This document shows positions 20,912-38,828 of a stretch of DNA of 53,635 bases, piece after piece (position 1 is the stretch's first letter; the number at the start of each line of letters is the position of its first letter). A program made the position numbers and the translations under genes. The DNA is taken from positions 1 through 53,635 of the IMG/VR virus record IMGVR_UViG_2537561603_000004. One strand, written 5' to 3'. Source of the DNA: a virus (taxonomy: Duplodnaviria > Heunggongvirae > Uroviricota > Caudoviricetes). The notes under the pieces are model-generated. The model saw nothing but the letters and a program-made list of their open reading frames with translations, was not told the DNA's origin and did no database searches.

Positions 20912-21125
20912 CGGGTCCTTTCCGTCGATCCAACAGGTTACGGGGCGGCGACCTCGCGGGTTTTCGCTATTTATGAAAATTTTCCGGTTTAAGGCGTTTC
21001 CGTTCTTCTTCGCCGTAACTTAATGTTTTTATTTAAAACACTCCCTGAAAAGAAAGGAAACGACAGGTGCTGAAAACGGGCTTTTTGGCCTCTGTCGTTT
21101 CCTTTCTCTGTTTTTGTCCGTGGAA
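20912..21125 (+). other. cos: Prophage cos site (cosQ-cosN-cosB); cosN at about 20943-20954
   Basis: Sequence matches the lambda cohesive-end region (gggcggcgacctcgcgggttttcgctatttatgaaaattttccggtttaaggcgtttccgttcttctt...) immediately upstream of nu1. Confidence 0.9.
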
Positions 21126-21131
21126 TGAACA

Positions 21132-21651
21132 ATGGAAGTCAACAAAAAGCAGCTGGCTGACATTTTCGGCGCGAGTATCCGTACTATTCAGAACTGGCAG
21201 GAGCAGGGAATGCCCGTTCTGCGAGGCGGTGGGAAGGGTAATGAGGTGCTTTATGACTCTGCCGACGTCATAAAATGGTATGCCGAAAGGGATGCTGAAA
21301 TTGAGAACGAAAAGCTGCGCCGGGAGGTTGAAGAACTGCGACAGGCCAGCGAGACAGATCTCCAGCCAGGGACTATTGAGTACGAACGCCATCGACTTAC
21401 GCGTGCGCAGGCCGACGCACAGGAGCTGAAAAATGCCAGAGACTCCGCTGAAGTGGTGGAAACCGCATTCTGTACTTTCGTGCTGTCGCGGATCGCAGGT
21501 GAAATTGCCAGTATTCTCGACGGGATCCCCCTGTCGGTGCAGCGGCGTTTTCCGGAACTGGAAAACCGACATGTTGATTTCCTGAAACGGGATATCATCA
21601 AAGCCATGAACAAAGCAGCCGCGCTGGATGAACTGATACCGGGGTTGCTGA

Positions 21652-21677
<26 letters not shown>
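21132..21677 (+). CDS. nu1: Terminase small subunit Nu1
   Basis: 181-aa translation near-identical to lambda Nu1. Confidence 0.95.
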
Positions 21678-26678: not shown

Positions 26679-26687
26679 GGGATGTTT

Positions 26688-27020
26688 ATGACGAGCAAAG
26701 AAACCTTTACCCATTACCAGCCGCTGGGCAACAGTGACCCGGCTCATACCGCAACCGCGCCCGGCGGATTGAGTGCGAAAGCGCCTGCAATGACCCCGCT
26801 GATGCTGGACACCTCCAGCCGTAAGCTGGTTGCGTGGGATGGCACCACCGACGGTGCTGCCGTTGGCATTCTTGCGGTTGCTGCTGACCAGACCAGCACC
26901 ACGCTGACGTTCTACAAGTCCGGCACGTTCCGTTATGAGGATGTGCTCTGGCCGGAGGCTGCCAGCGACGAGACGAAAAAACGGACCGCGTTTGCCGGAA
27001 CGGCAATCAGCATCGTTTAA
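26688..27020 (+). CDS. D: Head decoration protein D
   Basis: 110-aa translation from the ATG at 26688 ([12 protein letters not shown]...) matches lambda gpD. Confidence 0.95.
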
Positions 27021-27075: not shown

Positions 27076-27351
27076 ATGTCGATGTACACAACCGCCCAGC
27101 TGCTGGCGGCAAATGAGCAGAAATTTAAGTTTGATCCGCTGTTTCTGCGTCTCTTTTTCCGTGAGAGCTATCCCTTCACCACGGAGAAAGTCTATCTCTC
27201 ACAAATTCCGGGACTGGTAAACATGGCGCTGTACGTTTCGCCGATTGTTTCCGGTGAGGTTATCCGTTCCCGTGGCGGCTCCACCTCTGAATTTACGCCG
27301 GGATATGTCAAGCCGAAGCACTTAGCATGGCTTTCTGAGGCTTTCGTGTAG
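27076..27351 (+). pseudogene. E: Major capsid protein E, 5' portion (codons 1-81), interrupted by insertion at 27320/27321
   Basis: Translation MSMYTTAQLLAANEQKFKFDPLFL...TPGYVKPKH matches the lambda gpE N-terminus, then reads into unrelated sequence (LAWLSEAFV) and stops; the remainder of E resumes at 38043. Confidence 0.9.
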
Positions 27352-27448
27352 TTGCTGGTTTTTACACTTAATCTTTTGATAATAAAGAATAAGTCTATCT
27401 GGCGCTTTCACTGGATTTTCCTCGTTATCTGTGTGTTGCAATCATCTC

Positions 27449-27469
27449 TGTATTGCAGCTTGTATTGCT
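27449..27469 (+). repeat. Arm-type repeat, left copy (TGTATTGCAGCTTGTATTGCT)
   Basis: 21-bp sequence repeated in the same orientation at 37942-37962 (one mismatch), just inside each element end. Confidence 0.6.
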
Positions 27470-27483
27470 TTTTGGGGCTTAAA

Positions 27484-28719
27484 ATGGCTGGCGAGAACAA
27501 ACTGAGCGACAAAGCACTTAAAGGATATCTGGGGAAACCCAGAGAAAAGCAGATCACCATTGCTGATGGAAAGGGGCTTTCTATTCGTGTGAGTACCAAG
27601 GGGGCTGTGAGCTTTGTTTTCTTCTACAGGTTAGCAGGTGGCCGGGCTGCTCCGGTCTGGCTAACGTTGGGTAAATATCCTGATATGTCACTCAAACAGG
27701 CAAGGGAAAAGCGCGACGAGTGCCGTGGTTGGTTGGCTGACAAACGTGATCCGCGTATCCAGATTAAGATTCAGGCTGAAGAACGCTTAAAGCCGGTCAC
27801 AGTGGAGGATGCACTAAATTACTGGTATGAAAATTACTGTAAGGTGCGTCGTAAAACTCATGCTGTAACGCTTGGCAGATTTCGAAAGCATATTTTTCCC
27901 TATATCGGTCATTTGCCTGTAAATGACACTCACCTATATGAATGGCTGGACTGTTTTGACCGAATTAAACGTAATGCACCAGTTATGGCGGCGTATGTTT
28001 TTTCTGACACTAAATTAGCTCTTCGTTTTTGTCGGGTACGCCAGTACGCGACGTGTGATGCTTTAAAGGATTTGCGCATGAGTGATGTGGGGCAGATTGC
28101 AGGTAAGCGGGATCGGGTTCTGGATGAAGCCGAGCTGGGCCAGCTCTGGAAAGCAATTTTTGTCGAGCCTGATTTAAAACTAATGTCTGAATACACGCGA
28201 AAAATGTTTGTACTTTGTACAGTATTTGGATGTCGAATGAGTGAAGCCCGATTATCAGAATGGAGCGAATGGGATCTCGAAAGTTGGGTTTGGACTGTAC
28301 CAAAAGATCACTCAAAAACTGGTGTTGAAATCGTCAGACCAGTACCTGAAATTCTACGACAGTGGGTAACGGATGTTCACGAAGAGACAAAACATACTGG
28401 TTATGTGCTGGGAAGTCTGCGAATTAGAGAAAGCGTAAGCAAGATTGGGGGGAAAATCGGTAAACGTTTGGGCCATGAAAAACAATGGTCACTACACGAC
28501 CTTAGAAGAACGCTATCTACTCATCTAAGTGATCTCGGTGTTGAATTTTATGTAGTAGAACAACTGTTAGGCCATGCGCTACCTGGCGTGGCAGGTGTTT
28601 ACAACCGGAGTAAGTTTATGGCTAAAAAACTGGATGCTCTGGAACTCTGGACTACATATCTCAATAGCATCGCAGGTGCTGATTCAAAAGTGATAATCCT
28701 CAAACAAAAGGCTGGTTAA
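27484..28719 (+). CDS. Tyrosine integrase (P4-type, satellite-associated)
   Basis: 411-aa protein from the ATG at 27484; catalytic motifs HDLRRT and LLGHA...GVYNR; the N-terminal extension in the ORF track is unlikely to be coding. Confidence 0.85.
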   Translation: MAGENKLSDKALKGYLGKPREKQITIADGKGLSIRVSTKGAVSFVFFYRLAGGRAAPVWLTLGKYPDMSLKQAREKRDECRGWLADKRDPRIQIKIQAEERLKPVTVEDALNYWYENYCKVRRKTHAVTLGRFRKHIFPYIGHLPVNDTHLYEWLDCFDRIKRNAPVMAAYVFSDTKLALRFCRVRQYATCDALKDLRMSDVGQIAGKRDRVLDEAELGQLWKAIFVEPDLKLMSEYTRKMFVLCTVFGCRMSEARLSEWSEWDLESWVWTVPKDHSKTGVEIVRPVPEILRQWVTDVHEETKHTGYVLGSLRIRESVSKIGGKIGKRLGHEKQWSLHDLRRTLSTHLSDLGVEFYVVEQLLGHALPGVAGVYNRSKFMAKKLDALELWTTYLNSIAGADSKVIILKQKAG

Positions 28720-28720
28720 C

Positions 28721-28948
28721 ATGAAAAAAATGGCGATTGTTGATAAAAAGGGTCTGGAGTACATTCCTAACATCGATCGTATGATCCGTGAGAAAGAATG
28801 TCGGGAGCTAACCACTCTTGCGAACAGCACACGCTGGAAGCTGGAGAAGGAAGGGAAATTTCCTAAGCGGATCAAGATTGGCTCCACTGCTGTTGCATAT
28901 CGTCTTTCAGAAGTGCAGGCATGGATTCGAGGTGAGTGGGTAGTTTAA
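28721..28948 (+). CDS. AlpA-family transcriptional regulator/excisionase
   Basis: 75-aa protein with AlpA-like HTH (LANSTRWKLEKEGKFPKRIKIGSTAVAYRLSEVQAWI) directly after the integrase. Confidence 0.7.
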   Translation: MKKMAIVDKKGLEYIPNIDRMIREKECRELTTLANSTRWKLEKEGKFPKRIKIGSTAVAYRLSEVQAWIRGEWVV

Positions 28949-29017
28949 ATTATCTCAGAATAAAATATTATGAATTACTGATTTGAGAATTTGCACTCAA
29001 ATCAGTAATAACATTCT

Positions 29018-29554
29018 TTATAAGAGATTAAATCCAAATAAAGAGTAATCATATGCCGGGGTGCATTGCATCCCACTGAATATGCTGATATTTTTTTCTG
29101 TTTCTATCCTTTTTTCAATAAGTTGTTGTATATTTTTACAGTACAATTTGTGTGTGATGTTATTATCGTAAGCCTGATATAACAACGTCAATGTTGACGC
29201 TATGAAACATGCAGAAAGAAAATGAACTAGTACATGTGAACGTTTTTTGGTTGTCCATGATGCATTCGCTTGTGAAATATAAATCATTCTGAGAAGGATA
29301 ATGATGATAGACAGTAACAGACCACTCAATAAAATAAGCATTGGGTTTGCGTATTTTATTAATGGTTGAGAGCAAAAAACCATTATGGCTCCTGTGACTG
29401 CGTATGAGAAAAAGGAGTAATTAAACTTTTTACTTCTTCTCTCAAGTATTTTAATTTCATCTTGTGTGGGGGTTTTAGATGCCTCTAATATAAGTTTATT
29501 GAATGTTTCTATTATCTTGTTTTTTATGTTTGTGGCTATTTTTTTTAGATTCAT
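29018..29554 (-). CDS. Multi-pass membrane protein of unknown function (accessory cargo)
   Basis: 178-aa ORF with ~4 hydrophobic helices in a strongly AT-rich segment (about 28950-29870); own RBS (gggag). Confidence 0.5.
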   Translation of the reverse strand: MNLKKIATNIKNKIIETFNKLILEASKTPTQDEIKILERRSKKFNYSFFSYAVTGAIMVFCSQPLIKYANPMLILLSGLLLSIIIILLRMIYISQANASWTTKKRSHVLVHFLSACFIASTLTLLYQAYDNNITHKLYCKNIQQLIEKRIETEKNISIFSGMQCTPAYDYSLFGFNLL

Positions 29555-29904
29555 AGTATTCTAACTCCCTTAACTTATTTATTACTTTCTCTTTATGATA
29601 AGAGAGGGGAATGACTTGGTAAAGTGATTTGTAATTAATAATGATAATCCTTGCGATAAATATTTCTGCAAGTTATTTATCTGTTTGTTGCTATCTTGTT
29701 AAGCGTTGGGTGTGGTTTATGTTTGGAGCGACTTTATTTAATCGTGATTTTATGGATCTATATTTATATCCTGTAAGATAAGCGCATGTTAGTTCAGGAG
29801 TAGTGTCAGATAAAATTATTCGGAGTAGAACTACCTTTTCTGTTTATTGCCAGTATTTACATAGCAATGCGCCGTAGTTACTCACATCACGGCGCTGATA
29901 GTAA

Positions 29905-30207
29905 TTATTCAGATTCTTTGGCTTTACGCCGCTGGAGTTCTTCACGAGCGACGGCTACGAGTTGCCCGATTTCCTCCGCTGCCTTGATGCCGATTTGTTC
30001 GACCTTAGCTAAGGCATCCAGTGAAGACACGAGGGGATTTTCTCCGCTTCCTTCTGCCTGGCGGCGGGCGATCTCACCGCGCATGGCGGTTACTATGAAT
30101 CCGGCGTTGCTTTCGCCGTCCAGTTTTACGGATTCCATGCCCTCCATAACATCGTGGGGAACCCTGATCGTTGTCATTTGCGATTTTGCATTTTTGTATA
30201 CAGACAT
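29905..30207 (-). CDS. Ribbon-helix-helix (CopG/Arc-like) DNA-binding protein, putative repressor
   Basis: 100-aa ORF; N-terminal TTIRVPHDVMEGMESV pattern resembles an RHH beta-strand/helix; divergent from the rightward replication operon with operator-like repeats between. Confidence 0.45.
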   Translation of the reverse strand: MSVYKNAKSQMTTIRVPHDVMEGMESVKLDGESNAGFIVTAMRGEIARRQAEGSGENPLVSSLDALAKVEQIGIKAAEEIGQLVAVAREELQRRKAKESE

Positions 30208-30226
30208 AGTTAATCACCAATTTGTT

Positions 30227-30329
30227 ATGTGTATATCACTATACACAAAAGTGAGATATAAAAACACTTGCAATGTATATCACCACAATATAATGTATAT
30301 CTCACATCATGGTCGCTATGTATCTCACA
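30227..30329. promoter_or_regulatory. Divergent promoter region with repeated TGTAT(A)TC(A/T)CA operator-like motifs
   Basis: Direct repeats at 30227-30240, 30273-30284, 30293-30306 and 30318-30329, plus an inverted element (atatcac ... gtgagatat). Confidence 0.5.
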
Positions 30330-30415
30330 ATGATCGATTCATAAAAACGACGAAACCCGGCAGTGCGCGAACACTAACCGGGCTTCTAACCAAACCGTTA
30401 AACGAGGTAACGATT

Positions 30416-30781
30416 ATGGCTGGAACACAGCATACCCAAACTCACCCTAAATTTATATACACCTTTCTGGCACTACACCACGACCGCATGGCAGATGGAG
30501 CAACTACGGTACATGTTGCCGCTGACACGCTGGTTGATGCCCGCAAGATGGTTAAGGAGATGGGCTATACTGCGGCTTTCTGGAAAGGGCGTGAAGAAAA
30601 CACGCTGTTTATTCAGAAATGCGAAAACAATTTCATCTGGCGTTTTATCGCCCTGAGCACCGCACAACCACGCGTAATACACATCGAGGCCGCCAGCGAA
30701 CAGGAAGCCCGCCAGCAATTCCCAACTGGCTACGTGATGATATTCGCCGCCCGTATTCGTCAGGAGGTGTGCCATGAATGA
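30416..30781 (+). CDS. Hypothetical protein (first gene of rightward operon)
   Basis: 121-aa ORF from the ATG at 30416; the upstream part of the 304-aa track ORF spans the promoter and is rejected. Confidence 0.4.
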   Translation: MAGTQHTQTHPKFIYTFLALHHDRMADGATTVHVAADTLVDARKMVKEMGYTAAFWKGREENTLFIQKCENNFIWRFIALSTAQPRVIHIEAASEQEARQQFPTGYVMIFAARIRQEVCHE

Positions 30782-30998
30782 TCTTTATTTTAAAGTGCTG
30801 ACACATGCTGAAAACGCGCTCGTTTGTGGCAAAAATATGCGAGAAATCTTATCAACCTGGCTTGATGGGACAACAAATGCGGAACACGATGAACGGGATG
30901 CTAATTTAGCTGGAGCGTTAATTACGTTACTTGATCCTGTCATCAAAGAGCTGGATGAAGCTATAAAAATACACGACCAGAGCTATACCGGAGAATAA
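30774..30998 (+). CDS. Hypothetical protein
   Basis: 74-aa ORF with strong RBS (aggaggtg), overlapping the upstream gene stop. Confidence 0.4.
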   Translation: MNDLYFKVLTHAENALVCGKNMREILSTWLDGTTNAEHDERDANLAGALITLLDPVIKELDEAIKIHDQSYTGE

Positions 30999-31001
30999 AA
31001 A

Positions 31002-31289
31002 ATGAAAAATAAATTTTCTGGCTTTATTGCCAGCGGTCAAACTCATTCAAAAATCAGCCTTGGGGATATTTTCAAAGACAGCTATGGCTATCGGGTAAAG
31101 ATTATTTCGGTTGATGATCGTCGTGTCTCTTATTTGCGTGATGGTTATGATTTTGAATGTGTTATGCCGCGTCAGCAGTTCGAAAGAGATTTCATTCTGG
31201 TAAAAAATTGCAAGACAGATAATCAGAGGCGTGCCGCAGGCTATATCCGTAAAATTCGGGCAATGTTAGTTGCCGGAGGTAACAAATGA
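31002..31289 (+). CDS. Hypothetical protein
   Basis: 95-aa ORF overlapping the primase start. Confidence 0.4.
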   Translation: MKNKFSGFIASGQTHSKISLGDIFKDSYGYRVKIISVDDRRVSYLRDGYDFECVMPRQQFERDFILVKNCKTDNQRRAAGYIRKIRAMLVAGGNK

Positions 31290-33106
31290 AACGTGCTCCG
31301 AACTTAAAATACCAACCGCGCGACAAAATGACGGAAGTCATCATTTTTGCTGGCAGTGATGCCTGGAGCCATGCAAAAGAATGGAATGAATGGGCAGGTA
31401 AGCATATTGCAGCAGATGATACACCACCAGTCATTCTGGGTACGGAACAACTGGAAAACCTGGATGATATGCAAATTATCGATGAAGGCCGTCATTATGT
31501 GCGTGTTTATCGTGCCGGAAAGATTGCAGAGAAAAGTCTGACGAAGGTTGCGACATTACTTGCTATTGCAGGCGTAAAGGAAGCACGTTGTTACCGTAGC
31601 TTTGTTGATCGAGAGCCTGAAGACTGGACTCCGCGCCTTGTCGGCCTAAAAGCTGAAGCGGAGCATGGGGAAAGTCTGGTGATTGAACTGCCAGTTAAGA
31701 AGGCTGAGCGCAAAAATGACGAGCGTGCTTCATCTTTGGCGTTGAATCAGATGGGGGCCAGCCAGCGCGGTGAAGTTCTCCTTGCACATTACGGCGGCGA
31801 ACTGGCAATCAATGCCGACTCTGACACCGTTCATCATTACAACGGCGTTGTATGGGAGCCGGTTCAGGATAAAGAGTTACAGCGTGCTATGGCGCAGATT
31901 TTCATTGATGCGGAGATCAGCTATTCGCAGAACGCTATTAAATCGGCGGTAGATACCATGAAGTTAAGTTTGCCTGTAATGGGGAATACAGCCCGTAACC
32001 TGATTGGATTCAGTAACGGGGTATTTGATACCAGAACTGGTAACTTTCGGGAGCATAACAAAAACGACTGGTTGTTAATTGCCAGTGAATTACCTTTCAG
32101 CCCACCAGCAGAGGGGGAAACGCTGGCAACACATGCGCCGAATTTCTGGAAGTGGTTGCGCCGTTCGGTGGCTGAGAATGACCGCAAGGCAGATCGCGTA
32201 CTGGCGGCATTATTCATGGTGCTGGCGAACCGGTACGACTGGCAGTTATTCATTGAGGTAACAGGGCCGGGGGGAAGTGGTAAAAGTGTGATGGCGGAGA
32301 TTTGCACCATGCTGGCGGGTAAGGCTAATACAGTATCAGCAAGCATGAAGGCGCTGGAAGATGCAAGGGAACGTGCGTTAGTGGTTGGCTTTTCGCTGAT
32401 TATCATGCCGGATATGACCCGCTACGCTGGTGATGGGGCAGGGATTAAGGCCATTACAGGCGGTGACAAGGTGGCAATTGACCCGAAACACAAAGCCCCC
32501 TATTCAACGCGTATTCCGGCAGTAGTGCTGGCGGTTAACAATAACGCCATGTCATTCAGTGACCGCAGCGGGGGGATCTCACGTCGTCGGGTGATATTCA
32601 ATTTTTCGGAAGTTGTACCGGAGAACGAACGCGATTCGATGCTGGCGGAAAAAATAGAAGGTGAGCTGGCGGTAGTGATTCGCCATCTGCTTACACGGTT
32701 TGCTGATCAGGACGAAGCCAGACGCCTGTTATATGAGCAGCAGAAATCTGAAGAAGCACTGGCGATAAAGCGAGAGGGGGATTCGCTGGTGGACTTCTGC
32801 GGCTATCTCATGGCATCGGTAATGTGTGATGGCCTGTTAGTGGGTAATGCTGAAATTGTGCCATTCAGCCCACGCAGGTATCTCTATCATGCCTATCTGG
32901 CTTATATGAGGGCACATGGGTTTGGTAAACCTGTAACACTGACGCGCTTCGGTAAAGATATGCCGGGGGCAATGGCGGAATATGGCAGGGAGTATATGAA
33001 ACGGAAAACGAAGCACGGTTTGCGTTCAAACGTGACACTGACGGAGGAATCAGAAGACTGGATGCCATCATGTGTATCGGTCACTAATGACGATAGCAAA
33101 AATTAA
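31286..33106 (+). CDS. Primase-helicase (P4/PICI-type Pri-Rep, SF3 helicase C-terminal domain)
   Basis: 606-aa protein with Walker A (GPGGSGKS) and following Walker B-like region; RBS ggaggt; followed immediately by iterons. Confidence 0.75.
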   Translation: MKRAPNLKYQPRDKMTEVIIFAGSDAWSHAKEWNEWAGKHIAADDTPPVILGTEQLENLDDMQIIDEGRHYVRVYRAGKIAEKSLTKVATLLAIAGVKEARCYRSFVDREPEDWTPRLVGLKAEAEHGESLVIELPVKKAERKNDERASSLALNQMGASQRGEVLLAHYGGELAINADSDTVHHYNGVVWEPVQDKELQRAMAQIFIDAEISYSQNAIKSAVDTMKLSLPVMGNTARNLIGFSNGVFDTRTGNFREHNKNDWLLIASELPFSPPAEGETLATHAPNFWKWLRRSVAENDRKADRVLAALFMVLANRYDWQLFIEVTGPGGSGKSVMAEICTMLAGKANTVSASMKALEDARERALVVGFSLIIMPDMTRYAGDGAGIKAITGGDKVAIDPKHKAPYSTRIPAVVLAVNNNAMSFSDRSGGISRRRVIFNFSEVVPENERDSMLAEKIEGELAVVIRHLLTRFADQDEARRLLYEQQKSEEALAIKREGDSLVDFCGYLMASVMCDGLLVGNAEIVPFSPRRYLYHAYLAYMRAHGFGKPVTLTRFGKDMPGAMAEYGREYMKRKTKHGLRSNVTLTEESEDWMPSCVSVTNDDSKN

Positions 33107-33116
33107 ACTTATGGAA

Positions 33117-33345
33117 TAACTGTTCACCACTGTTCACCCTGTCATAAATATCTTTTATATCAGTATATTATAGGGTGAACAGTTATTTATGAACTGTTCA
33201 CCAAACTATTCACTGTTCACCTTTTTGATTGTTTATTGAGCTTCAAGGGTGAACAGTGGTGAACAGTTGGTGAATAGTTTTTGTGAAACTGTTCACCAAT
33301 TAACATTATGAATTAAAAGAGAAAATATCAAAAGGTGAACAGGTG
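33117..33345. repeat. Replication origin iterons (CTGTTCACC / GGTGAACAG, about 10 copies in both orientations)
   Basis: Dense array of 9-bp repeats immediately downstream of the primase-helicase gene. Confidence 0.8.
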
Positions 33346-33393
33346 AAGGGTTAAAACGCAAAAATTTTAATTTACTGCTGTGAGATAAAGCCT

Positions 33394-33639
33394 ATGACAG
33401 CGAAGCACACAAAAAAATCACAATCGCACGCCCTTGATTTGACGGAACACTGGTTAAGGGTGTCGATAAAAATCATCGACCGCAACGCCGGGGAAGGATA
33501 CGCGAAAGCACATCCCGAACTGATTAGCGCATTCATGACAACGGCGGCTGCAAACTTTGCCACTCTGACCGAACGGGAGATTGCTGAAGCGGAGGAAGTG
33601 ACAACAATCAATATTAAGTCCGGAGAGCAGGCAGCATGA
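33394..33639 (+). CDS. Hypothetical protein
   Basis: 81-aa ORF between ori and ssb. Confidence 0.35.
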   Translation: MTAKHTKKSQSHALDLTEHWLRVSIKIIDRNAGEGYAKAHPELISAFMTTAAANFATLTEREIAEAEEVTTINIKSGEQAA

Positions 33640-34085
33640 CGGCGCAAATATCAGTTTACGGGCGGTTGGTGGACGACCCGCAGACAAAACAGACCAGCAA
33701 GGGCACCCCCATGACGCTGGCGCGTATGGCGGTATCACTGCCCTGCAGTCAGTCGGATGACGGTCAGGCGACGATGTGGTTATCTGTCCTGGCGTTTGGC
33801 AGACAAGCCGACGCGCTGGCAAAGCATCACAAAGGCGAACTCCTGAGCGTGGCGGGTAACATGCAGATGAGCCAGTGGACTGGACAGAACGGCGAAACGC
33901 GGCAGGGCTGGCAGGTTATCGCAGACAGCGTAATCAGTGCGCGATCGGTGCGACCGGGCGGCAATAAAGGCCAACAGGGGCAGGCTACTGACGCACTGAA
34001 CAGAGCAAAACAACAGGCAGATCAGCAAGGAAGCCAGCCACCAGTGGGAGATAATGAGCAATGGGGAGATGATATCCCGTTTTAA
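33636..34085 (+). CDS. ssb: Single-stranded DNA-binding protein (SSB)
   Basis: 149-aa protein with OB-fold-like N-terminus (ISVYGRLVDDPQ...), Gly/Gln-rich linker and the SSB-signature acidic tail DDIPF. Confidence 0.7.
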   Translation: MTAQISVYGRLVDDPQTKQTSKGTPMTLARMAVSLPCSQSDDGQATMWLSVLAFGRQADALAKHHKGELLSVAGNMQMSQWTGQNGETRQGWQVIADSVISARSVRPGGNKGQQGQATDALNRAKQQADQQGSQPPVGDNEQWGDDIPF

Positions 34086-34302
34086 ATATTGCCAATAAAA
34101 AAAGGCCGGAAAAAATAAATTTTCCGGCATGCTACATAAATCCCGACCAAAGGGAGTGAAGATATTAACACTAATTTTCCGCACTGAAGTTGTCACCCCA
34201 AAACTTTATACAACATTGCACTCGGTTGCATGTATTCGCATGACAAATATCGGTGATAGCATATATCCACAATTATTTTTAATGAATGCAAAGAGGATGC
34301 GT

Positions 34303-35343
34303 ATGGTTGATTTATATTCGCCTACTCAGCTTGTACAGGTGGTTAATGCTGTAGATGTACAAAAACAACTAAATGCGTTGTTTACCAGTTTGTTTTTTAC
34401 TCGCTCGGTAATGTTTGAATCGCGCGATATTATTCTTGATACAATCGACGATCCAAATATCCCAATTGCAGCGTTTTGTTCTCCTATGGTGGGTAGTAAA
34501 GTTTCACGTGACGAAGGGTACGAATCAAAAACAATTCGTCCAGGCTATATGAAGCCGAAAAGCAGCATTGATCCAAATAAGTTAGCTGTGCGCCCTGCTG
34601 GTGTATCACCTGAGCAATACAATGCTTTTGGGGCGCGTAATATTAAAGTTAAACAGGCGATTGTAAATCAAGCTAAAGCTATTCGTGCACGTATTGAATG
34701 GCTTGCTGTTCAGGCAATCACAACGGGGAAAAATATCATTGAGGGCGATGGTATTGAACGTTATGAGCTGGACTGGAATATTAAACCACAAAATATCATC
34801 ACTCAGTCTGGCGGTGCTGAGTGGTCAGGTAAGGATAAAGAAACTTTTGATCCAAATGATGATATTGAGAGCTACGCAGAATTTAGTGAGGGCGTCACTA
34901 ATATTATCATTATGGGCGGTAATGTATGGAAGAAATACCGTTCATTCAGAGCGATAAAAGAGGCTCTGGATACCCGTCGTGGTTCTAATTCCGAACTGGA
35001 AACGGCCCTTAAAGACCTTGGTGATTCGGTGAGTTTTAAAGGGTATATGGGCGATGTTGCGATTGTTGTTTACAGCGGGCGTTATACCGACGAGGACGGA
35101 ACAGAAAAACATTTCCTTGATCCTGATTTGATGGTGCTTGGCAATACGGCTCTTCAGGGGATTGTCGCCTATGGCGGTATTCAGGATCCGGAGCTAATCC
35201 GAATGGGGCTGACTAAAGCCGAACTTGCACCGAAAAACTATATTGTGCCTGGTGATCCGGCTATTGAATATGTGCAGACACATTCAGCACCACAGCCAAT
35301 ACCGGCCCGCATCAATCGTTTTGTTACCGTTCGCATTGGCTAA
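34303..35343 (+). CDS. Element-encoded major capsid protein, divergent homologue of lambda gpE
   Basis: ~346-aa protein with clear but partial similarity to lambda gpE along its length (e.g. TRRGSNSELETA.KDLG...GDVAIVVYSG); ATG at 34303 with RBS aagagga. Confidence 0.8.
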   Translation: MVDLYSPTQLVQVVNAVDVQKQLNALFTSLFFTRSVMFESRDIILDTIDDPNIPIAAFCSPMVGSKVSRDEGYESKTIRPGYMKPKSSIDPNKLAVRPAGVSPEQYNAFGARNIKVKQAIVNQAKAIRARIEWLAVQAITTGKNIIEGDGIERYELDWNIKPQNIITQSGGAEWSGKDKETFDPNDDIESYAEFSEGVTNIIIMGGNVWKKYRSFRAIKEALDTRRGSNSELETALKDLGDSVSFKGYMGDVAIVVYSGRYTDEDGTEKHFLDPDLMVLGNTALQGIVAYGGIQDPELIRMGLTKAELAPKNYIVPGDPAIEYVQTHSAPQPIPARINRFVTVRIG

Positions 35344-35352
35344 GGGGGAGCA

Positions 35353-35694
35353 ATGGCTACTCATTACACTGAACTCATGGCTGGCACTGAAGCACTGGTG
35401 ACTACGCTGGGGATATTTTCAGCTAATAAAGGGGTAATTCCTGCATTTACGCCACTGATGCAGGAAGATGCAACAGGTGCACTGGTGGTATGGGATGGTT
35501 CGAGCGTAGGTAAAGCGGTTTATGTTTCCGCTGTACAAATCGACACCGCGAAAAAAACACAGGCTCAGGTCTATAAGACAGGTGTCTTAAATGTTGATGC
35601 TCTGAACTGGCCTGAGTCTGTTAAAGAACTGTCAGTAAAGGTTGCAGCGTTTGTTGGCTCAGGTATTTCTGTTCAGCCGCTGGCTCGTGTGTAA
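35353..35694 (+). CDS. Element-encoded decoration protein, divergent homologue of lambda gpD
   Basis: 113-aa protein alignable to lambda gpD (PAFTPLMQEDATGALVVWDGSSVGKAV... versus [27 protein letters not shown]...). Confidence 0.7.
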   Translation: MATHYTELMAGTEALVTTLGIFSANKGVIPAFTPLMQEDATGALVVWDGSSVGKAVYVSAVQIDTAKKTQAQVYKTGVLNVDALNWPESVKELSVKVAAFVGSGISVQPLARV

Positions 35695-35705
35695 AGGGGG
35701 ATACA

Positions 35706-36089
35706 ATGCAGAATGATTACAATGACCTTAAGCCAATTGCCGAAATGATGTACCCGAATCAAGCTGTAGAGGAATTAAAAGCTATCGCTGACAAAATGTG
35801 TTTAAGCGAGCGCCTTGTTGATATGAATCAGGTGATGGAAATTACAACCCTGAGTCGTCGTACACTGCTAAACCTTGAGGCTAGTGGAGAGTTCCCGGAG
35901 CGTGTGCAGGTTACGGAAGGGCGTAAGGCCTGGTATTTAAGTGAAGTGATCGACTGGATAAATAATATTCCTCGCGCTTCTGAATATTGCCGCGTACCTG
36001 TCCCAAAAAAGCCAGATGCGGCGCTATGCCTCAAGATTGAGCGTGTACGCCGCAATGCACGGGATGGTCGCTATAAGCTGATTGGTTGA
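35706..36089 (+). CDS. AlpA/MerR-like winged-HTH protein upstream of the element cos site
   Basis: 127-aa protein; segment MEITTLSRRTLLNLEASGEFPERVQVTEGRKAWYLSEVIDWI is AlpA-like. Confidence 0.5.
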   Translation: MQNDYNDLKPIAEMMYPNQAVEELKAIADKMCLSERLVDMNQVMEITTLSRRTLLNLEASGEFPERVQVTEGRKAWYLSEVIDWINNIPRASEYCRVPVPKKPDAALCLKIERVRRNARDGRYKLIG

Positions 36090-36109
36090 TGAAATTAGGG
36101 CCCGCTCTG

Positions 36110-36320
36110 GCTGGCGGGTCCTTTCCGGCGATCCAGAACGTTACGGGGCGTCAGGCGCGCAGTTTTTTGCTATTTGTGAAAATTTTCCTGTTTAAGGCGT
36201 TTCCGTTCTTCTTCGCCGTAACTTAATGTTTTTATTAAAAACACCCCCTAAAAAGAAAGGAAACGACAGGTGCTAAAAACAGGCTTTTTGGCCTCTGTCG
36301 TTTCCTTTCTCTGGTTTTGT
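36110..36320 (+). other. Second cos-like site (cosQ/cosB conserved, cosN region divergent)
   Basis: ~210 bp alignable to the prophage cos at 20912-21125; the cosN-equivalent reads gggcgtcaggcg instead of gggcggcgacct. Confidence 0.8.
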
Positions 36321-36687
36321 TGCCATCCGTCGCGGTCTATCACCAGAAAAAATCTTATCCCTGAGTTGAATCAGGCACTATTCAGAAGCGGCCAATAACG
36401 CGCCGCTAGCTTCACTTCATAGTTATGGCCTACTTCTGCGCCATTGCAATTGCTTTATGCGCCTTGATGGTGGAATATAGAGCAAGCAGTTTGCGAATAA
36501 CAAAGTTTCATATGTTTTTTGCTGTGTGGCTAGACAACTTTACAGCAGAGTTTTGTGTCAGTTCTTTATGTGTGCAAGCAAGCTTGAGGGGGAATTACTT
36601 CTGGCTGCATCTTTGCTTAAGAACAGCAATAATTTAATCATAAGGAAATGTATATAAGCCTGATTAAATTTCAGGCTTATTGAAATG

Positions 36688-37830
36688 TTAACTCCTTATT
36701 AGAGAGTAAATTCCATCCTCTTTAAGGAAGTCTATTACTTCAAAGAATGAGATAAAGAATTCCCAAGAACCAAAAGCATATGCATGAATTTCGTAAGGTG
36801 CAAAATGGAATCTAAATCCATCACTATTTATTGTGAACGAGTCTAAGTTACTATCCATGATACCCGTTGCAAACGTACTAATGTCGTCCTCACTTGGTTT
36901 TTCACCAGTTTTCTCCCAAAATTCACGAGCTGATTCAGAGATTATTTTTTGTTTTATCTTATTAATCGCTTCTTGCTCTTTCCCTTCGGTAAATACATCC
37001 CATAAACTAAATTTGTATGCGTAGTCATCCTTGGTTATTACGAAATTACTAGTTTCAAAATGACTGTTAGGGTGTGCTGCTCCCGCACCATACCAATGTA
37101 CGGAATGAAGGATGCTCATGACATTTTCGTTACAGTATGAGATGTTATAACTTTCATTATAGGAACTAGTGTAAGTGTGTTTATATTCTTCATCCCAATA
37201 TGGTGTTCCTGGCCATAGTGATGTGCGTTCAGAAAAAATATGTAAAGCCGCTTTTCCTGAAAAGTAATCACTAATGAGTTTTGCTGATTTCGGTAATGTA
37301 TGGCTTTCAATTCTTGGATATGCTATTTCAATTTCATGCCCTGGGATCTTGTTATATTCTTCCTTGAAAACCTCGCTGCTAAAGTTAAATGGCCCATAAG
37401 TGATACCTTGAGATATTTCAAGTTTTTGTTGCGATGCTGCTAATCTTAAAGATCTAGATAAAATGTCCCAACCATCATTTCTCTTAAAATCAATGAATTG
37501 GAGCTTGCTTGATATGTAGGCGGGTACTTCGCAATCATCAATAAGTAATGGTATCACGAACACATCATCTGGTTTGTAATACTTTAGTTTATCAATGGCG
37601 TCATTTATTTCGCGGCGAATATAACCATTTTTCTGAGTGCTCACTTTGCTAAGGATAAGGATTATCAAGTTTGAATTAGCGAAGTTTTTTTGGATTTCAT
37701 AATCCCAGTTTACGCCAGCGGGTATATCTTTTACATCCATCCAAGGGGAATATCCTCCACTTTTTAGCCTTTCATAGATTTCTTCAGTTATCGTTTCATC
37801 TTCTTTTGCATGAGCAAGAAAAATTTTCAT
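36688..37830 (-). CDS. TIR-domain protein with uncharacterised C-terminal domain (candidate anti-phage effector)
   Basis: 380-aa ORF; N-terminal ~120 aa fit a bacterial TIR fold (MKIFLAHAKEDE...LKSGGYSPWMDVKDIPAGVNWDYEI...SNLIILILSKVS...REINDAI); AT-rich, own RBS (aagga); between the element cos and its right end. Confidence 0.7.
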   Translation of the reverse strand: MKIFLAHAKEDETITEEIYERLKSGGYSPWMDVKDIPAGVNWDYEIQKNFANSNLIILILSKVSTQKNGYIRREINDAIDKLKYYKPDDVFVIPLLIDDCEVPAYISSKLQFIDFKRNDGWDILSRSLRLAASQQKLEISQGITYGPFNFSSEVFKEEYNKIPGHEIEIAYPRIESHTLPKSAKLISDYFSGKAALHIFSERTSLWPGTPYWDEEYKHTYTSSYNESYNISYCNENVMSILHSVHWYGAGAAHPNSHFETSNFVITKDDYAYKFSLWDVFTEGKEQEAINKIKQKIISESAREFWEKTGEKPSEDDISTFATGIMDSNLDSFTINSDGFRFHFAPYEIHAYAFGSWEFFISFFEVIDFLKEDGIYSLIRS

Positions 37831-37941
37831 TGAATATTCCTTTATAATTTAACTAATTAAGTGAAGGAGGCTTTACTTGGCTGTGTTAGAAAAAATTCGG
37901 TTTGTTTTTTGTACGATGCCAAGAAGGCTTTTCCCTAACCA

Positions 37942-37962
37942 TGTATTGCAGCATGTATTGCT
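37942..37962 (+). repeat. Arm-type repeat, right copy (TGTATTGCAGCATGTATTGCT)
   Basis: Same-orientation copy of the 27449-27469 repeat. Confidence 0.6.
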
Positions 37963-38042
37963 ACGTAATTCTGCACCCTCTCATTTATAAAATAAATCTC
38001 TGTTAAATCAAGTATCTTTTTTCTATTTGACTCATGTAACCC

Positions 38043-38828
38043 AAGCATGAAGTGAATCCGCAGATGACCCTGCGTCGCCTGCCGGATGAAGATCCGCAGA
38101 ATCTGGTGGACCCGGCTTACCGCCGCCGTCGCATCATCATGCAGAACATGCGTGACGAAGAGCTGGCCATTGCTCAGGTCGAAGAGATGCAGGCAGTTTC
38201 TGCCGTGCTTAAGGGCAAATACACCATGACCGGTGAAGCCTTCGATCCGGTTGAGGTGGATATGGGCCGCAGTGAGGAGAATAACATCACGCAGTCCGGC
38301 GGCACGGAGTGGAGCAAGCGTGACAAGTCCACGTATGACCCGACCGACGATATCGAAGCCTACGCGCTGAACGCCAGCGGTGTGGTGAATATCATCGTGT
38401 TCGATCCGAAAGGCTGGGCGCTGTTCCGTTCCTTCAAAGCCGTCAAGGAGAAGCTGGATACCCGTCGTGGCTCTAATTCCGAGCTGGAGACAGCGGTGAA
38501 AGACCTGGGTAAAGCGGTGTCCTATAAGGGGATGTATGGCGATGTGGCCATCGTCGTGTATTCCGGACAGTACGTGGAAAACGGCGTCAAAAAGAACTTC
38601 CTGCCGGACAACACGATGGTGCTGGGGAACACTCAGGCACGCGGTCTGCGCACCTATGGCTGCATTCAGGATGCGGACGCACAGCGCGAAGGCATTAACG
38701 CCTCTGCCCGTTACCCGAAAAACTGGGTGACCACCGGCGATCCGGCGCGTGAGTTCACCATGATTCAGTCAGCACCGCTGATGCTGCTGGCTGACCCTGA
38801 TGAGTTCGTGTCCGTACAACTGGCGTAA
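38043..38828 (+). pseudogene. E: Major capsid protein E, 3' portion (codons ~80-341), separated from 5' portion by the insertion
   Basis: Translation KHEVNPQMTLRRLPDEDPQNL...FVSVQLA matches lambda gpE from residue ~80 to the C-terminus, in frame with the core. Confidence 0.9.

What the first reader, a model, noticed from the sequence alone, without database searches (positions are those of the whole stretch)
34303..35694. Element encodes its own divergent gpE-like capsid and gpD-like decoration proteins, in reversed order
The element disrupts helper E yet supplies paralogues of both shell proteins (E-like 34303-35343, D-like 35353-35694). This suggests a capsid swap or capsid-size redirection, but unlike capsid-forming PICIs it brings no terminase, portal or protease. 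The element relies on helper A, Nu1, B, C and tail genes. A 10.7 kb genome would need either a smaller shell or multimeric packaging.
Basis: partly seen in the sequence, partly recalled or inferred. Interest (0 to 1): 0.8.

Follow-up and report, generated by a model that had tools for sequence, protein, structure and literature searches.

The report
Known satellite's own capsid gene pair
A small phage satellite sitting inside the capsid gene of a lambda-like prophage carries its own intact, divergent capsid and decoration genes, but this element and this gene pair are already published and no function has been found for the pair.

Summary
Window 34303-35343 encodes a full-length lambda-E-family capsid protein (E*), 42% identical to the helper's E. 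Window 35353-35694 encodes a gpD/SHP-family decoration protein (D*), 37% identical to the helper's D. Their order is reversed relative to the helper's D-then-E.

The carrier is a 10,727-bp Gram-negative PICI inserted at about codon 82 of E in an icd-integrated lambda-like prophage. It is the published helper-embedded PICI type "11capE" (Tommasini et al. 2023); E* has the same RefSeq protein accession as in E. coli NRG857c. The capsid plus decoration pair was described in 2018 in the model PICI EcCICFT073 (c1499/c1500; c1499 crystal structure 3BQW). There, deletions changed neither transfer nor lambda interference, and packaged DNA was phage-sized.

- E*/D* form a lineage not found in 50,697 phage records.
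- They are under strong purifying selection (dN/dS about 0.04-0.13) and match the satellite's low GC.
- E* is always followed by D*, including in PICIs that do not interrupt E.
- The element has its own cos site. Relatives carry a Nu1-type small terminase that this copy has lost.

Size redirection is not supported. Packaging of about four genome copies into normal heads is the documented route for the model PICI. The function of the pair remains unresolved.

The parts
34303..35343 (+). E*: satellite-lineage major capsid protein homologue (346 aa, HK97 fold, Pfam Phage_cap_E)
   Evidence: It is 42% identical to helper E and 55% to EcCICFT073 c1499. The protein accession is the same as in the published 11capE. 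dN/dS is 0.035-0.09.
35353..35694 (+). D*: satellite-lineage head-decoration protein homologue (113 aa, Pfam HDPD, gpD/SHP family)
   Evidence: It is 37% identical to helper D and 54% to c1500. The best solved relative is phage 21 SHP (1TD0, 4.7e-16). dN/dS is 0.06-0.13.
35706..36089 (+). AlpA-type helix-turn-helix protein that always follows D* in this module; function unknown
   Evidence: Pfam Phage_AlpA 7.5e-09. It holds the same position in L002, L004, L005, L006 and Serratia L007. It has no similarity to c1501 or RppA.
36120..36320 (+). Satellite cos site: flanks are like the helper's, but the 12-nt cosN overhang differs (36146-36157, GGGCGTCAGGCG)
   Evidence: Alignment with helper cos at 20900-21140, with phage cos regions, and a pattern search.
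27484..28719 (+). Satellite tyrosine integrase (P4-type arm-binding domain)
   Evidence: Pfam Arm-DNA-bind_3 3.7e-19 and Phage_integrase 1e-16.
28721..28948 (+). alpA (PICI regulator/excisionase-type helix-turn-helix protein)
   Evidence: Pfam Phage_AlpA 2.8e-15.
31286..33106 (+). Primase-helicase (pri-rep), followed by ori-like repeats at 33109-33300
   Evidence: Pfam D5_N, DUF5906 and Pox_D5. Repeat families D2/D3, GGTGAACAG...CTGTTCACC.
33636..34085 (+). Single-strand DNA-binding protein, immediately upstream of the E*/D* module
   Evidence: Pfam SSB 1.7e-16.
36688..37830 (-). Cargo gene: TIR plus DUF3298 protein in the variable slot between cos and attR; it occupies the place of the small terminase gene found in relatives
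   Evidence: Pfam TIR_2 2.8e-21 and DUF3298 1e-10. Alignment to L002 shows the Nu1-type gene missing from its first codon. Relatives carry other cargo in this slot.
27076..27320 (+). 5' fragment of helper capsid gene E (codons 1 to about 82), ending at attL (...ATGTCAAGCCGAAGCA)
   Evidence: RefSeq annotates it as 'major capsid protein, incomplete'.
38048..38828 (+). 3' fragment of helper capsid gene E, starting after attR (CATGTAACCCAAGCA|TGAAGTG)
   Evidence: Joining the two fragments gives 341 aa, 340/341 matching lambda gpE as I recalled it (the reference sequence is from memory).
26682..27020 (+). Helper decoration gene D (intact), upstream of E as in lambda
21132..21677 (+). Helper Nu1 (small terminase), with helper cosN at 20943-20954; the only Nu1 in the window

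Best explanation
Identity (shown, about 0.95). Window 27321-38047 is a Gram-negative phage-inducible chromosomal island (PICI) of the helper-embedded type published as 11capE. It is inserted, in the same orientation as the late genes, at about codon 82 of capsid gene E of an icd-integrated lambda-like prophage. E* and D* are the 'late-zone' capsid and decoration genes typical of these PICIs, the counterparts of c1499/c1500 in EcCICFT073.

Nature of the genes (shown). They are not recent copies of the helper genes. They belong to an old lineage not found in sequenced phages, match the satellite's low GC, are always arranged E* then D*, and are under strong purifying selection. E* keeps a complete HK97 fold.

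Mechanism (inferred, about 0.4). E* and D* are assembly-competent shell proteins made late in infection. In the embedded state, helper late transcription should run through the satellite and express them. They then join, or can substitute in, normal-size heads built on the helper's portal, protease/scaffold and tails. This gives the satellite a matched shell and decoration supply that does not depend on helper E, which is unavailable until the satellite excises. The supply is dispensable when helper E is intact.

Packaging. The satellite DNA is cut at its own cos by helper terminase (Nu1 plus A). It is most likely packaged as a concatemer of about four units (42.9 kb) into lambda-size heads, not into small heads.
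For: Identity:
- 100% nucleotide match, with the same gene annotation, in E. coli TUM14697.
- 84% coverage at 98.2% identity to NRG857c, the strain in which 11capE was described. The E* protein accession is the same, WP_000228111.1 (PMC10111431).
- int, alpA, pri, ssb, cos and an icd-side prophage are all present.

Known pair:
- c1499/c1500 are described in PMC6092414.
- E*/D* are 55%/54% identical to them, in the same order.
- 3BQW, the crystal structure of the CFT073 capsid protein (the c1499 sequence), is the top hit by sequence (2.6e-121) and by fold (TM 0.90).

Functional constraint:
- dN/dS for E* is 0.035-0.09 at dS 0.17-1.25; for D* it is 0.06-0.13.
- All 7 E-type and 7 D-type genes translated (helper genes included) are intact.
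- The two protein clusters at 99% identity to E* hold 1,918 member sequences and have 346-aa representatives.
- The pair covers at least 80% of the query in 395 of 5,426 complete E. coli genomes.

Separate lineage:
- The satellite clade (bits above 350) is clearly set apart from the phage E clade (bits below 300).
- No phage record is closer than 42% for E* or 40% for D*.
- GC3 is 36-38% against 68-69% for helper E/D.

Structural competence:
- The AlphaFold model (pLDDT 80.6) matches lambda gpE in monomer, procapsid and mature forms at TM 0.74-0.87.
- 95 alignment columns are conserved identically in both clades.

Packaging:
- The satellite has a cos site with helper-like flanks.
- It has no Rpp and no small terminase of its own.
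- EcCICFT073 DNA in particles was phage-sized.
- Four copies of 10,727 bp equal 88% of the lambda genome.
Against: - No expression or particle data exist for this element.
[quoted passage not shown] A structural role is therefore unproven and at best redundant under those conditions.
- Tommasini et al. could not detect virions or plaques from the 11capE composite.
- E* is only 42% identical to helper E. Whether it is compatible with the helper's scaffold, protease and portal is untested.
- The promoter scan found nothing above the shuffled background upstream of E*.
- Strong purifying selection shows that the proteins do something, not that they build shells.
Confidence: 0.55

Rival explanations
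1. Capsid-size redirection. E*, with D*, biases assembly toward small heads (T=4 or T=3) that fit one or two satellite genomes and exclude the helper genome, as the capsid homologue Ccm of SaPIbov5 does.
For: - Satellite-encoded capsid homologues can redirect size (Ccm in SaPIbov5).
- PmCI172 makes small heads and encodes a capsid homologue (PMC6893505 and PMC6092414).
- By rough volume scaling (my estimate), 10.7 kb would fit a T=3 head and 21.4 kb a T=4 head.
- E* differs from helper E most in the N-terminal arm, E-loop and spine-helix regions.
Against: - For the closest studied homologues (55% identical), all packaged DNA was phage-sized and size redirection was ruled out.
- The E* model keeps every domain of gpE at TM 0.83-0.90, with no truncation.
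- A decoration protein is not needed for size control.
Confidence: 0.1
2. Backup copy specific to the embedded state. E* exists to replace the interrupted helper E, so that heads can form before or without satellite excision (suggested by Tommasini et al.).
For: - Helper E is split and cannot be expressed until excision.
- The E site is the commonest site for helper-embedded PICIs, and capsid genes are the commonest late genes in these PICIs.
- The satellite is co-oriented with the late operon, so read-through could express E*.
Against: - The same E*-D* module occurs in PICIs at chromosomal sites: phoQ, tRNA-Pro, cspD/clpS and fis.
- It also occurs in an Edwardsiella PICI embedded in the portal gene, whose helper keeps intact D and E.
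- D is not interrupted here, yet D* is always carried.
- The unexcised composite would be about 61 kb according to Tommasini et al., larger than the 48.5-kb lambda genome, and so probably too large to package.
Confidence: 0.15
3. Interference. E* and/or D* co-assemble with helper proteins and poison or divert helper head assembly, lowering helper yield.
For: - Satellites usually interfere with their helpers.
- This element lacks the known interference protein Rpp, so another mechanism might be needed.
- The hybrid E::E* gene on a metagenome scaffold shows the two genes share enough homology to recombine, if the scaffold is real.
Against: - Deleting c1499 or c1500 did not relieve lambda interference in EcCICFT073, although RppA could have masked an effect.
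- Interruption of E already delays the helper.
- There is no direct evidence.
Confidence: 0.12
4. Decaying leftovers of captured helper late genes with no present function.
For: - PICI late zones are dynamic and capture helper late genes.
- No phenotype was found for c1499/c1500.
- The neighbouring small terminase gene has been lost in this copy.
Against: - dN/dS is 0.035-0.13 with synonymous divergence up to saturation.
- The ORFs are intact across genera.
- Gene order is conserved and composition is fully adapted to the satellite.
Confidence: 0.04

Closest known systems
Eco567.11capE, the helper-embedded PICI in capsid gene E of prophage 50icd in E. coli NRG857c (Tommasini, Mageeney and Williams 2023, PMC10111431)
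   Same: - Same insertion site in E and same co-orientation.
- Same helper type, at icd.
- 98.2% nucleotide identity over 84% of the element.
- Same E* protein accession; D* differs by one residue.
[quoted passage not shown]
   Different: - The cargo slot differs: TIR plus DUF3298 here, DUF262 plus HEPN in NRG857c.
- NRG857c keeps a 64-aa ORF that starts like Nu1; the window has lost the gene from its first codon.
- The paper's main text does not mention the decoration gene.
EcCICFT073 c1499 (capsid homologue, PDB 3BQW) and c1500 (head decoration homologue) (Fillol-Salom et al. 2018, PMC6092414)
   Same: - Same two families, same E*-then-D* order, same position after the replication genes.
- 55% and 54% identity.
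- Same satellite clade, distinct from phage E and D.
   Different: - EcCICFT073 sits at a chromosomal site next to phoQ.
- It uses RppA and a non-lambda cosB to redirect helper TerS.
- The window element has no Rpp, has cos flanks like the helper's, and has a variant cosN.
Ccm of SaPIbov5 (capsid-protein homologue that redirects cos-phage head size)
   Same: A satellite-encoded HK97-fold homologue of the helper's major capsid protein.
   Different: - Ccm has a demonstrated size-redirection and interference phenotype. The E* family has none: packaged DNA was phage-sized and knockouts were neutral.
- Ccm has no partner decoration gene.
Capsid-forming PICIs (cf-PICIs)
   Same: A PICI that encodes its own major capsid protein.
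   Different: cf-PICIs encode the whole head and packaging set (capsid, protease, portal, connectors, terminase) and take only tails from the helper. This element has only capsid and decoration genes plus cos.
Lambda gpE/gpD and phage 21 SHP
   Same: Same protein families and folds (Pfam Phage_cap_E and HDPD; fold match TM 0.83-0.87 to gpE).
   Different: - 42% and 37-40% identity.
- Opposite gene order.
- Much lower GC.
- No sequenced phage carries this clade.

Membership tests
Gram-negative PICI (Fillol-Salom 2018) | int at the left end followed by alpA, with genes transcribed in one direction | tested here: met
   int 27484-28719 and alpA 28721-28948. All core genes lie on the + strand; only the cargo genes and two small ORFs are on the - strand.
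Gram-negative PICI (Fillol-Salom 2018) | Own replicon: a primase-type initiator with an origin just downstream | tested here: met
   pri 31286-33106 (D5_N, DUF5906, Pox_D5). Repeats at 33109-33300. Origin function was not tested.
Gram-negative PICI (Fillol-Salom 2018) | Size of 10-20 kb, no lysis or tail genes, and a cos site related to the helper's | tested here: met
   10,727 bp. Only the capsid and decoration genes are phage-structural. cos at 36120-36320.
Gram-negative PICI (Fillol-Salom 2018) | Induction, packaging and high-frequency transfer that depend on a helper phage | not testable with these tools
   Requires induction and transduction experiments.
Helper-embedded PICI, E:Phage_cap_E site group (Tommasini 2023) | [quoted passage not shown] | tested here: met
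   E is split after codon 82 (KPKH|EV). Removing the insert restores a 341-aa E. The prophage lies at icd.
Helper-embedded PICI, E:Phage_cap_E site group (Tommasini 2023) | Close sequence relationship to the reference element 11capE | tested here: met
   98.2% identity over 84% of the element to NRG857c. The gene-by-gene map is identical apart from the cargo.
Helper-embedded PICI, E:Phage_cap_E site group (Tommasini 2023) | Doubled DNA motif flanking the attP core | tested here: inconclusive
   A doubled motif TGTATTGCAGC(T/A)TGTATTGCT lies near both ends, at 27449-27469 and 37942-37962. I did not compare it with the motif in the paper's supplement.
Helper-embedded PICI, E:Phage_cap_E site group (Tommasini 2023) | Integrase belongs to the helper-embedded PICI clade | not tested
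   No integrase tree was built. Membership is inferred only from the near-identity of the whole element to 11capE.
Lambda E family major capsid protein (Pfam PF03864, HK97 fold) | Full-length profile match and HK97 fold | tested here: met
   Pfam 1.4e-41 over profile positions 4-327 of 329. Fold matches: TM 0.90 to 3BQW and 0.83-0.87 to gpE.
gpD/SHP head decoration family (Pfam PF02924) | Profile match above the curated cut-off and similarity to solved gpD/SHP structures | tested here: met
   56.3 bits against a cut-off of 29.1. SHP 1TD0 4.7e-16 and gpD 7VII 1e-11. Trimer formation and capsid binding were not tested.
Capsid-forming PICI | Encodes the full head module: capsid, protease, portal, connectors and terminase | tested here: not met
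   No portal, protease, connector or terminase gene lies in 27321-38047.
Ccm-type size-redirecting capsid homologue | Causes satellite-size heads and thereby blocks the helper | not testable with these tools
   Needs microscopy and DNA sizing. For the 55%-identical homologue, the published result is negative.
Rpp-type packaging redirection (Fillol-Salom 2019) | Encodes an Rpp protein and a cosB unlike the helper's | tested here: not met
   No RppA match in the window. The region right of cosN is nearly identical to the helper's.

The most novel reading that the evidence does not exclude
E* and D* are a working, satellite-owned shell. Together with the helper's portal, protease/scaffold, terminase and tails, they would build particles whose coat is partly or wholly satellite-encoded. 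That would make this an intermediate between classical PICIs, which steal everything, and capsid-forming PICIs, which steal only tails. The role would become important, or even required, in the helper-embedded state, where helper E is split. Under this reading the neutral knockouts in EcCICFT073 reflect redundancy with an intact helper E.
Probability: 0.2. Interest if true: 0.6.

Novelty: already known. Interest (0 to 1): 0.18.

Why it matters
In fact the configuration (a helper-embedded PICI in E that carries its own capsid gene) was published in 2023. The capsid plus decoration pair was published, knocked out and crystallised between 2008 and 2018.

What remains open is why PICIs across Enterobacterales keep this pair under strong purifying selection when no phenotype has been found. 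The embedded configuration in this window is the natural setting in which to test that, because helper E is absent until the satellite excises.

Tried and rejected
- An Rfam scan of the whole window at gathering thresholds found nothing, so the C4/isrK-type immunity RNAs reported for some PICIs were not detected.
- The promoter and terminator scan of 33300-36700 was not enriched over shuffles. It gave only a hairpin at 34105-34128, which looks like a minus-strand terminator. No promoter for E* could be assigned.
- I searched the window for RppA, c1501, c1504 and PICI small-terminase homologues. Only the helper's Nu1 matched.
- I looked for a phage that carries an E*- or D*-clade gene as a possible source. 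None was found in 50,697 records.
- I considered programmed read-through giving an E*-D* fusion, because the two genes are in frame here, separated by a stop plus three codons, and one 463-aa fusion protein exists in the database (P0005). I rejected it: the spacing is 11 nt in CFT073 and 10 nt in Serratia, the frame is not conserved, and P0005 is a single sequence.
- P0083, a 470-aa protein with both domains, turned out to be a frameshift fusion of ordinary lambda D then E. It is not an E-then-D phage arrangement.
- One literature search was wasted on an ambiguous term. A search for newer work on c1499/c1500 function found none in the held library.
- I did not download all 395 E. coli copies to count pseudogenes. 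Intactness rests on 6 copies translated, on annotation labels, and on cluster representatives.
Full report

Yes. Window 34303-35343 (+) is a 346-aa ORF and 35353-35694 (+) a 113-aa ORF.
- The first matches Pfam Phage_cap_E end to end (1.4e-41). The second matches Pfam HDPD, the lambda gpD family (4.5e-15).
- Against the helper's own genes in the same window, E* is 42% identical to E (E=5e-86) and D* is 37% identical to D (E=3e-17).
- The helper order is D (26682-27020) then E (from 27076). The element's order is E* then D*.
- Both genes have strong ribosome-binding sites.
- An E. coli genome 100% identical over the element (TUM14697) is annotated with exactly these coordinates as 'major capsid protein' and 'head decoration protein'.

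**2. What carries them?**

Helper gene E is split after codon 82...PGYVKPKH | EVNPQ... The left junction is ...ATGTCAAGCCGAAGCA|CTTAGC at 27320/27321. The right junction is ...CATGTAACCCAAGCA|TGAAGTG at 38047/38048.

The insert encodes, in order:
- a P4-type tyrosine integrase and AlpA;
- a YlcI/YnfO-family protein and an Icd-like protein (RefSeq names), then a DUF4222 protein;
- a D5-type primase-helicase followed by ori-like repeats;
- SSB, E*, D* and a second AlpA-type helix-turn-helix protein;
- a cos site;
- a minus-strand TIR plus DUF3298 cargo gene.

The surrounding prophage is lambda-like and lies next to icd. It has int/xis, red genes, a repressor, O/P, Q, lysis genes, Nu1, A, W, B, C, D, the split E, FI, FII and tail genes.

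**3. It is a published element.**

Tommasini, Mageeney and Williams (2023, PMC10111431) described Eco567.11capE in E. coli NRG857c. [quoted passage not shown] They found 201 further instances at the same E site.
- NRG857c is hit H27 in my search, at 98.2% identity over 84% of the element. The remainder is the cargo slot.
- Its gene map is the same, and its E* has the same RefSeq protein accession (WP_000228111.1) as the copy identical to the window.

The capsid plus decoration pair itself was described earlier in the model Gram-negative PICI EcCICFT073 as c1499 and c1500 (Fillol-Salom et al. 2018, PMC6092414).
- In CFT073 the two genes have the same order.
- They are 55% and 54% identical to E* and D*.
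- PDB entry 3BQW, 'putative capsid protein of prophage (E. coli CFT073)', has the c1499 sequence. It is the best solved relative of E* by sequence (2.6e-121) and by fold.

**4. What the literature says about function.**

In EcCICFT073, deleting c1499 or c1500 changed neither transfer (3.8e3 and 8.7e3, against 8e3 transductants/ml for the parent) nor lambda interference. [quoted passage not shown] Dokland's review says the same. Tommasini et al. suggest the PICI capsid gene could act as a backup for the interrupted helper gene, but note the redundancy is not essential. I found no later work on these genes in the held library.

(a) *A separate lineage.* A search of 5.8 billion proteins separates a satellite clade from the phage E clade. 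The satellite clade has at least 50% identity and more than 350 bits, and spans Escherichia, Salmonella, Cedecea, Scandinavium, Serratia, Edwardsiella and Lelliottia. The phage E clade has 38-44% identity and fewer than 300 bits. No record among 50,697 phage genomes has an E* relative closer than lambda E itself at 42%, or a D* relative above 40%.

(b) *Long residence in the satellite.* E* and D* have 43.5% and 47.1% GC (GC3 36-38%), like the element as a whole (43.4%). Helper E and D have 55.9% and 59.0% (GC3 68-69%).

(c) *Strong constraint.* For E*, dN/dS is 0.035 at dS 0.18 and 0.084 at dS 1.25. For D* it is 0.06-0.13. All 14 genes translated are intact. The two protein clusters at 99% identity to E* hold 1,918 member sequences and have 346-aa representatives. 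The pair covers at least 80% of the query in 395 of 5,426 complete E. coli genomes.

(d) *Not tied to disruption of E.* The same ssb-E*-D*-HTH module occurs in several other settings:
- E. coli PICIs at tRNA-Pro/yejM and at cspD/clpS, with different integrases and a different replication protein;
- EcCICFT073, next to phoQ;
- Serratia and Lelliottia PICIs at fis;
- an Edwardsiella PICI embedded in the portal gene, whose helper keeps intact D then E.

In all ten contexts examined, E* is immediately followed by D*.

(e) *Fold.* The AlphaFold model (pLDDT 80.6, pTM 0.81) has low confidence only at residues 56-73, which I take to be the tip of the E-loop. It matches 3BQW at TM 0.90, monomeric gpE (7SJ5) at 0.87, the lambda procapsid (7VI9) at 0.83 and mature capsid chains at 0.74. 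No domain is missing. Differences from helper E concentrate in the N-terminal third, the spine-helix region and the C-terminal strands. The central part (alignment columns about 165-255) is closer to lambda E (70-77%) than to c1499, which suggests old recombination with a helper-type gene.

(f) *Packaging equipment.* The element has a cos site at about 36120-36320 whose flanks are nearly identical to the helper's. Its 12-nt cosN overhang differs: GGGCGTCAGGCG at 36146-36157, against GGGCGGCGACCT at 20943-20954.
- Close relatives carry a Nu1-type small terminase directly after cos (Pfam Phage_Nu1 8e-82). In the window this gene is missing from its first codon, and cargo sits there.
- There is no Rpp homologue. 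'No terminase' is therefore true of this copy but not of the family.
- With helper-like cos flanks, helper Nu1 plus A should be sufficient for cutting and packaging.

**6. Most likely mechanism.**

*Shown.* E*/D* are intact, conserved proteins of the capsid and decoration folds that belong to PICIs. The element depends on the helper for portal, protease/scaffold, terminase and tails. Helper E cannot be made until the satellite excises.

*Inferred.* E* and D* are probably made late. In the embedded state, helper late transcription should read into the co-oriented satellite, as Tommasini et al. also argue. They probably enter, or can build, ordinary lambda-size heads on helper portal and scaffold. 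This would give the satellite a shell supply independent of helper E, redundant when helper E is present. I put about 0.4 on this mechanism and about 0.95 on the identity of the element.

For packaging, four copies of 10,727 bp make 42.9 kb, 88% of the 48,502-bp lambda genome. This fits the phage-size DNA seen for EcCICFT073.

Rival readings and my weights:
- size redirection, 0.10;
- backup specific to the embedded state, 0.15;
- interference by co-assembly, 0.12;
- functionless relic, 0.04 (contradicted by the selection analysis).

**7. The reversed order.**

E*-then-D* is conserved across the whole satellite clade, so it is ancient. In the Lelliottia PICI the order is E*-D*-S49 protease, a complete reversal of lambda's C-D-E with orientation kept. 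Tommasini et al. report a PICI in which two captured helper segments are in reversed order and abut, in the prophage, at the E integration site. They suggest integrase-mediated capture. My inference, untested, is that successive captures of upstream flanking genes, each added at the right end of the late zone, would produce exactly this reversed but co-oriented order.

**8. Verdict.**

It is unsupported on capsid swap or size redirection, and wrong in linking the gene pair to disruption of E. The element, its site and its own capsid gene are published (2023). The capsid plus decoration pair is published with knockouts and a crystal structure (2008-2018). Novelty: already known. The remaining open question is the function of a strongly conserved gene pair with no known phenotype.

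Noticed in passing
window 36146-36157 versus 20943-20954: The satellite's cos has flanks almost identical to the helper's, but the 12-nt cohesive-end sequence differs at 6 of 12 positions (GGGCGTCAGGCG against lambda-type GGGCGGCGACCT). The same variant is in NRG857c 11capE and in L002. An N15-like phage (YDC107_1) has a third variant, GGGCGGAAGGCG. Satellite and helper DNA ends would not anneal to each other.
   Followed up: partly
window 36320-37830; L002 12036-12587; L006 10460-10654: Relatives carry a Nu1-type small terminase gene right after cos. In the window it is deleted from its first codon, and in NRG857c only a 64-aa ORF that starts like Nu1 remains. The slot between cos and attR holds different cargo in different strains: TIR plus DUF3298 here, and elsewhere DUF2971, abortive-infection proteins, or DUF262 plus HEPN. 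It looks like a defence-gene hotspot.
   Followed up: partly
L013 2801-3829 (ENA metagenome scaffold, protein P0044): A clean hybrid capsid gene: residues 1 to about 225 are essentially lambda E, and residues about 226-342 are 100% identical to the window's E*. Helper portal, protease and D lie upstream, and D* plus the HTH gene downstream. This is either homologous recombination between helper E and satellite E* or an assembly chimera. It rests on one scaffold only.
   Followed up: partly
window 34303-35343, alignment columns about 165-255: E* is mosaic. Its central part is 70-77% identical to lambda E but only 43-57% to c1499. The N- and C-terminal parts are closer to c1499. This suggests old gene conversion with a helper-type capsid gene.
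   Followed up: partly
L009 10001-12752 (Lelliottia sp. SL45, PICI at fis): This PICI carries E*, D* and then an S49 protease/scaffold gene. That is lambda's C-D-E order fully reversed with orientation kept. It also carries a Phage_HCP-family protein after alpA.
   Followed up: no
L008 765-12681 (Edwardsiella tarda): A PICI with E*/D* is embedded in the portal gene of a lambda-like prophage whose own D and E are intact. This shows that the capsid pair is carried regardless of which helper gene is interrupted.
   Followed up: partly
window 27449-27469 and 37942-37962: A doubled motif TGTATTGCAGC(T/A)TGTATTGCT sits about 130 bp inside the left end and about 100 bp inside the right end of the element. 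It would flank the core in the circular form. These are probably integrase arm-type sites, perhaps the 'doubled DNA motif' mentioned by Tommasini et al.
   Followed up: no
window 34105-34128: A strong 9-bp hairpin (GCCGGAAAA...TTTTCCGGC) lies between ssb and E*. It reads as an intrinsic terminator only on the minus strand. It is conserved in NRG857c and in the tRNA-Pro PICI, but the region is largely different in the cspD/clpS PICI.
   Followed up: partly
window 35341-35355; protein P0005: E* and D* are in the same reading frame here, separated by TAA plus three codons. One database protein (463 aa, a single Logan contig) is an E*-D* fusion in which the stop is read as Leu. The frame relation is not conserved in CFT073 or Serratia, so this is probably a mutation or a sequencing error.
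   Followed up: yes
window 33109-33300: Repeated inverted units GGTGAACAG(N)CTGTTCACC lie just downstream of the primase gene, where PICI replication origins are expected.
   Followed up: no
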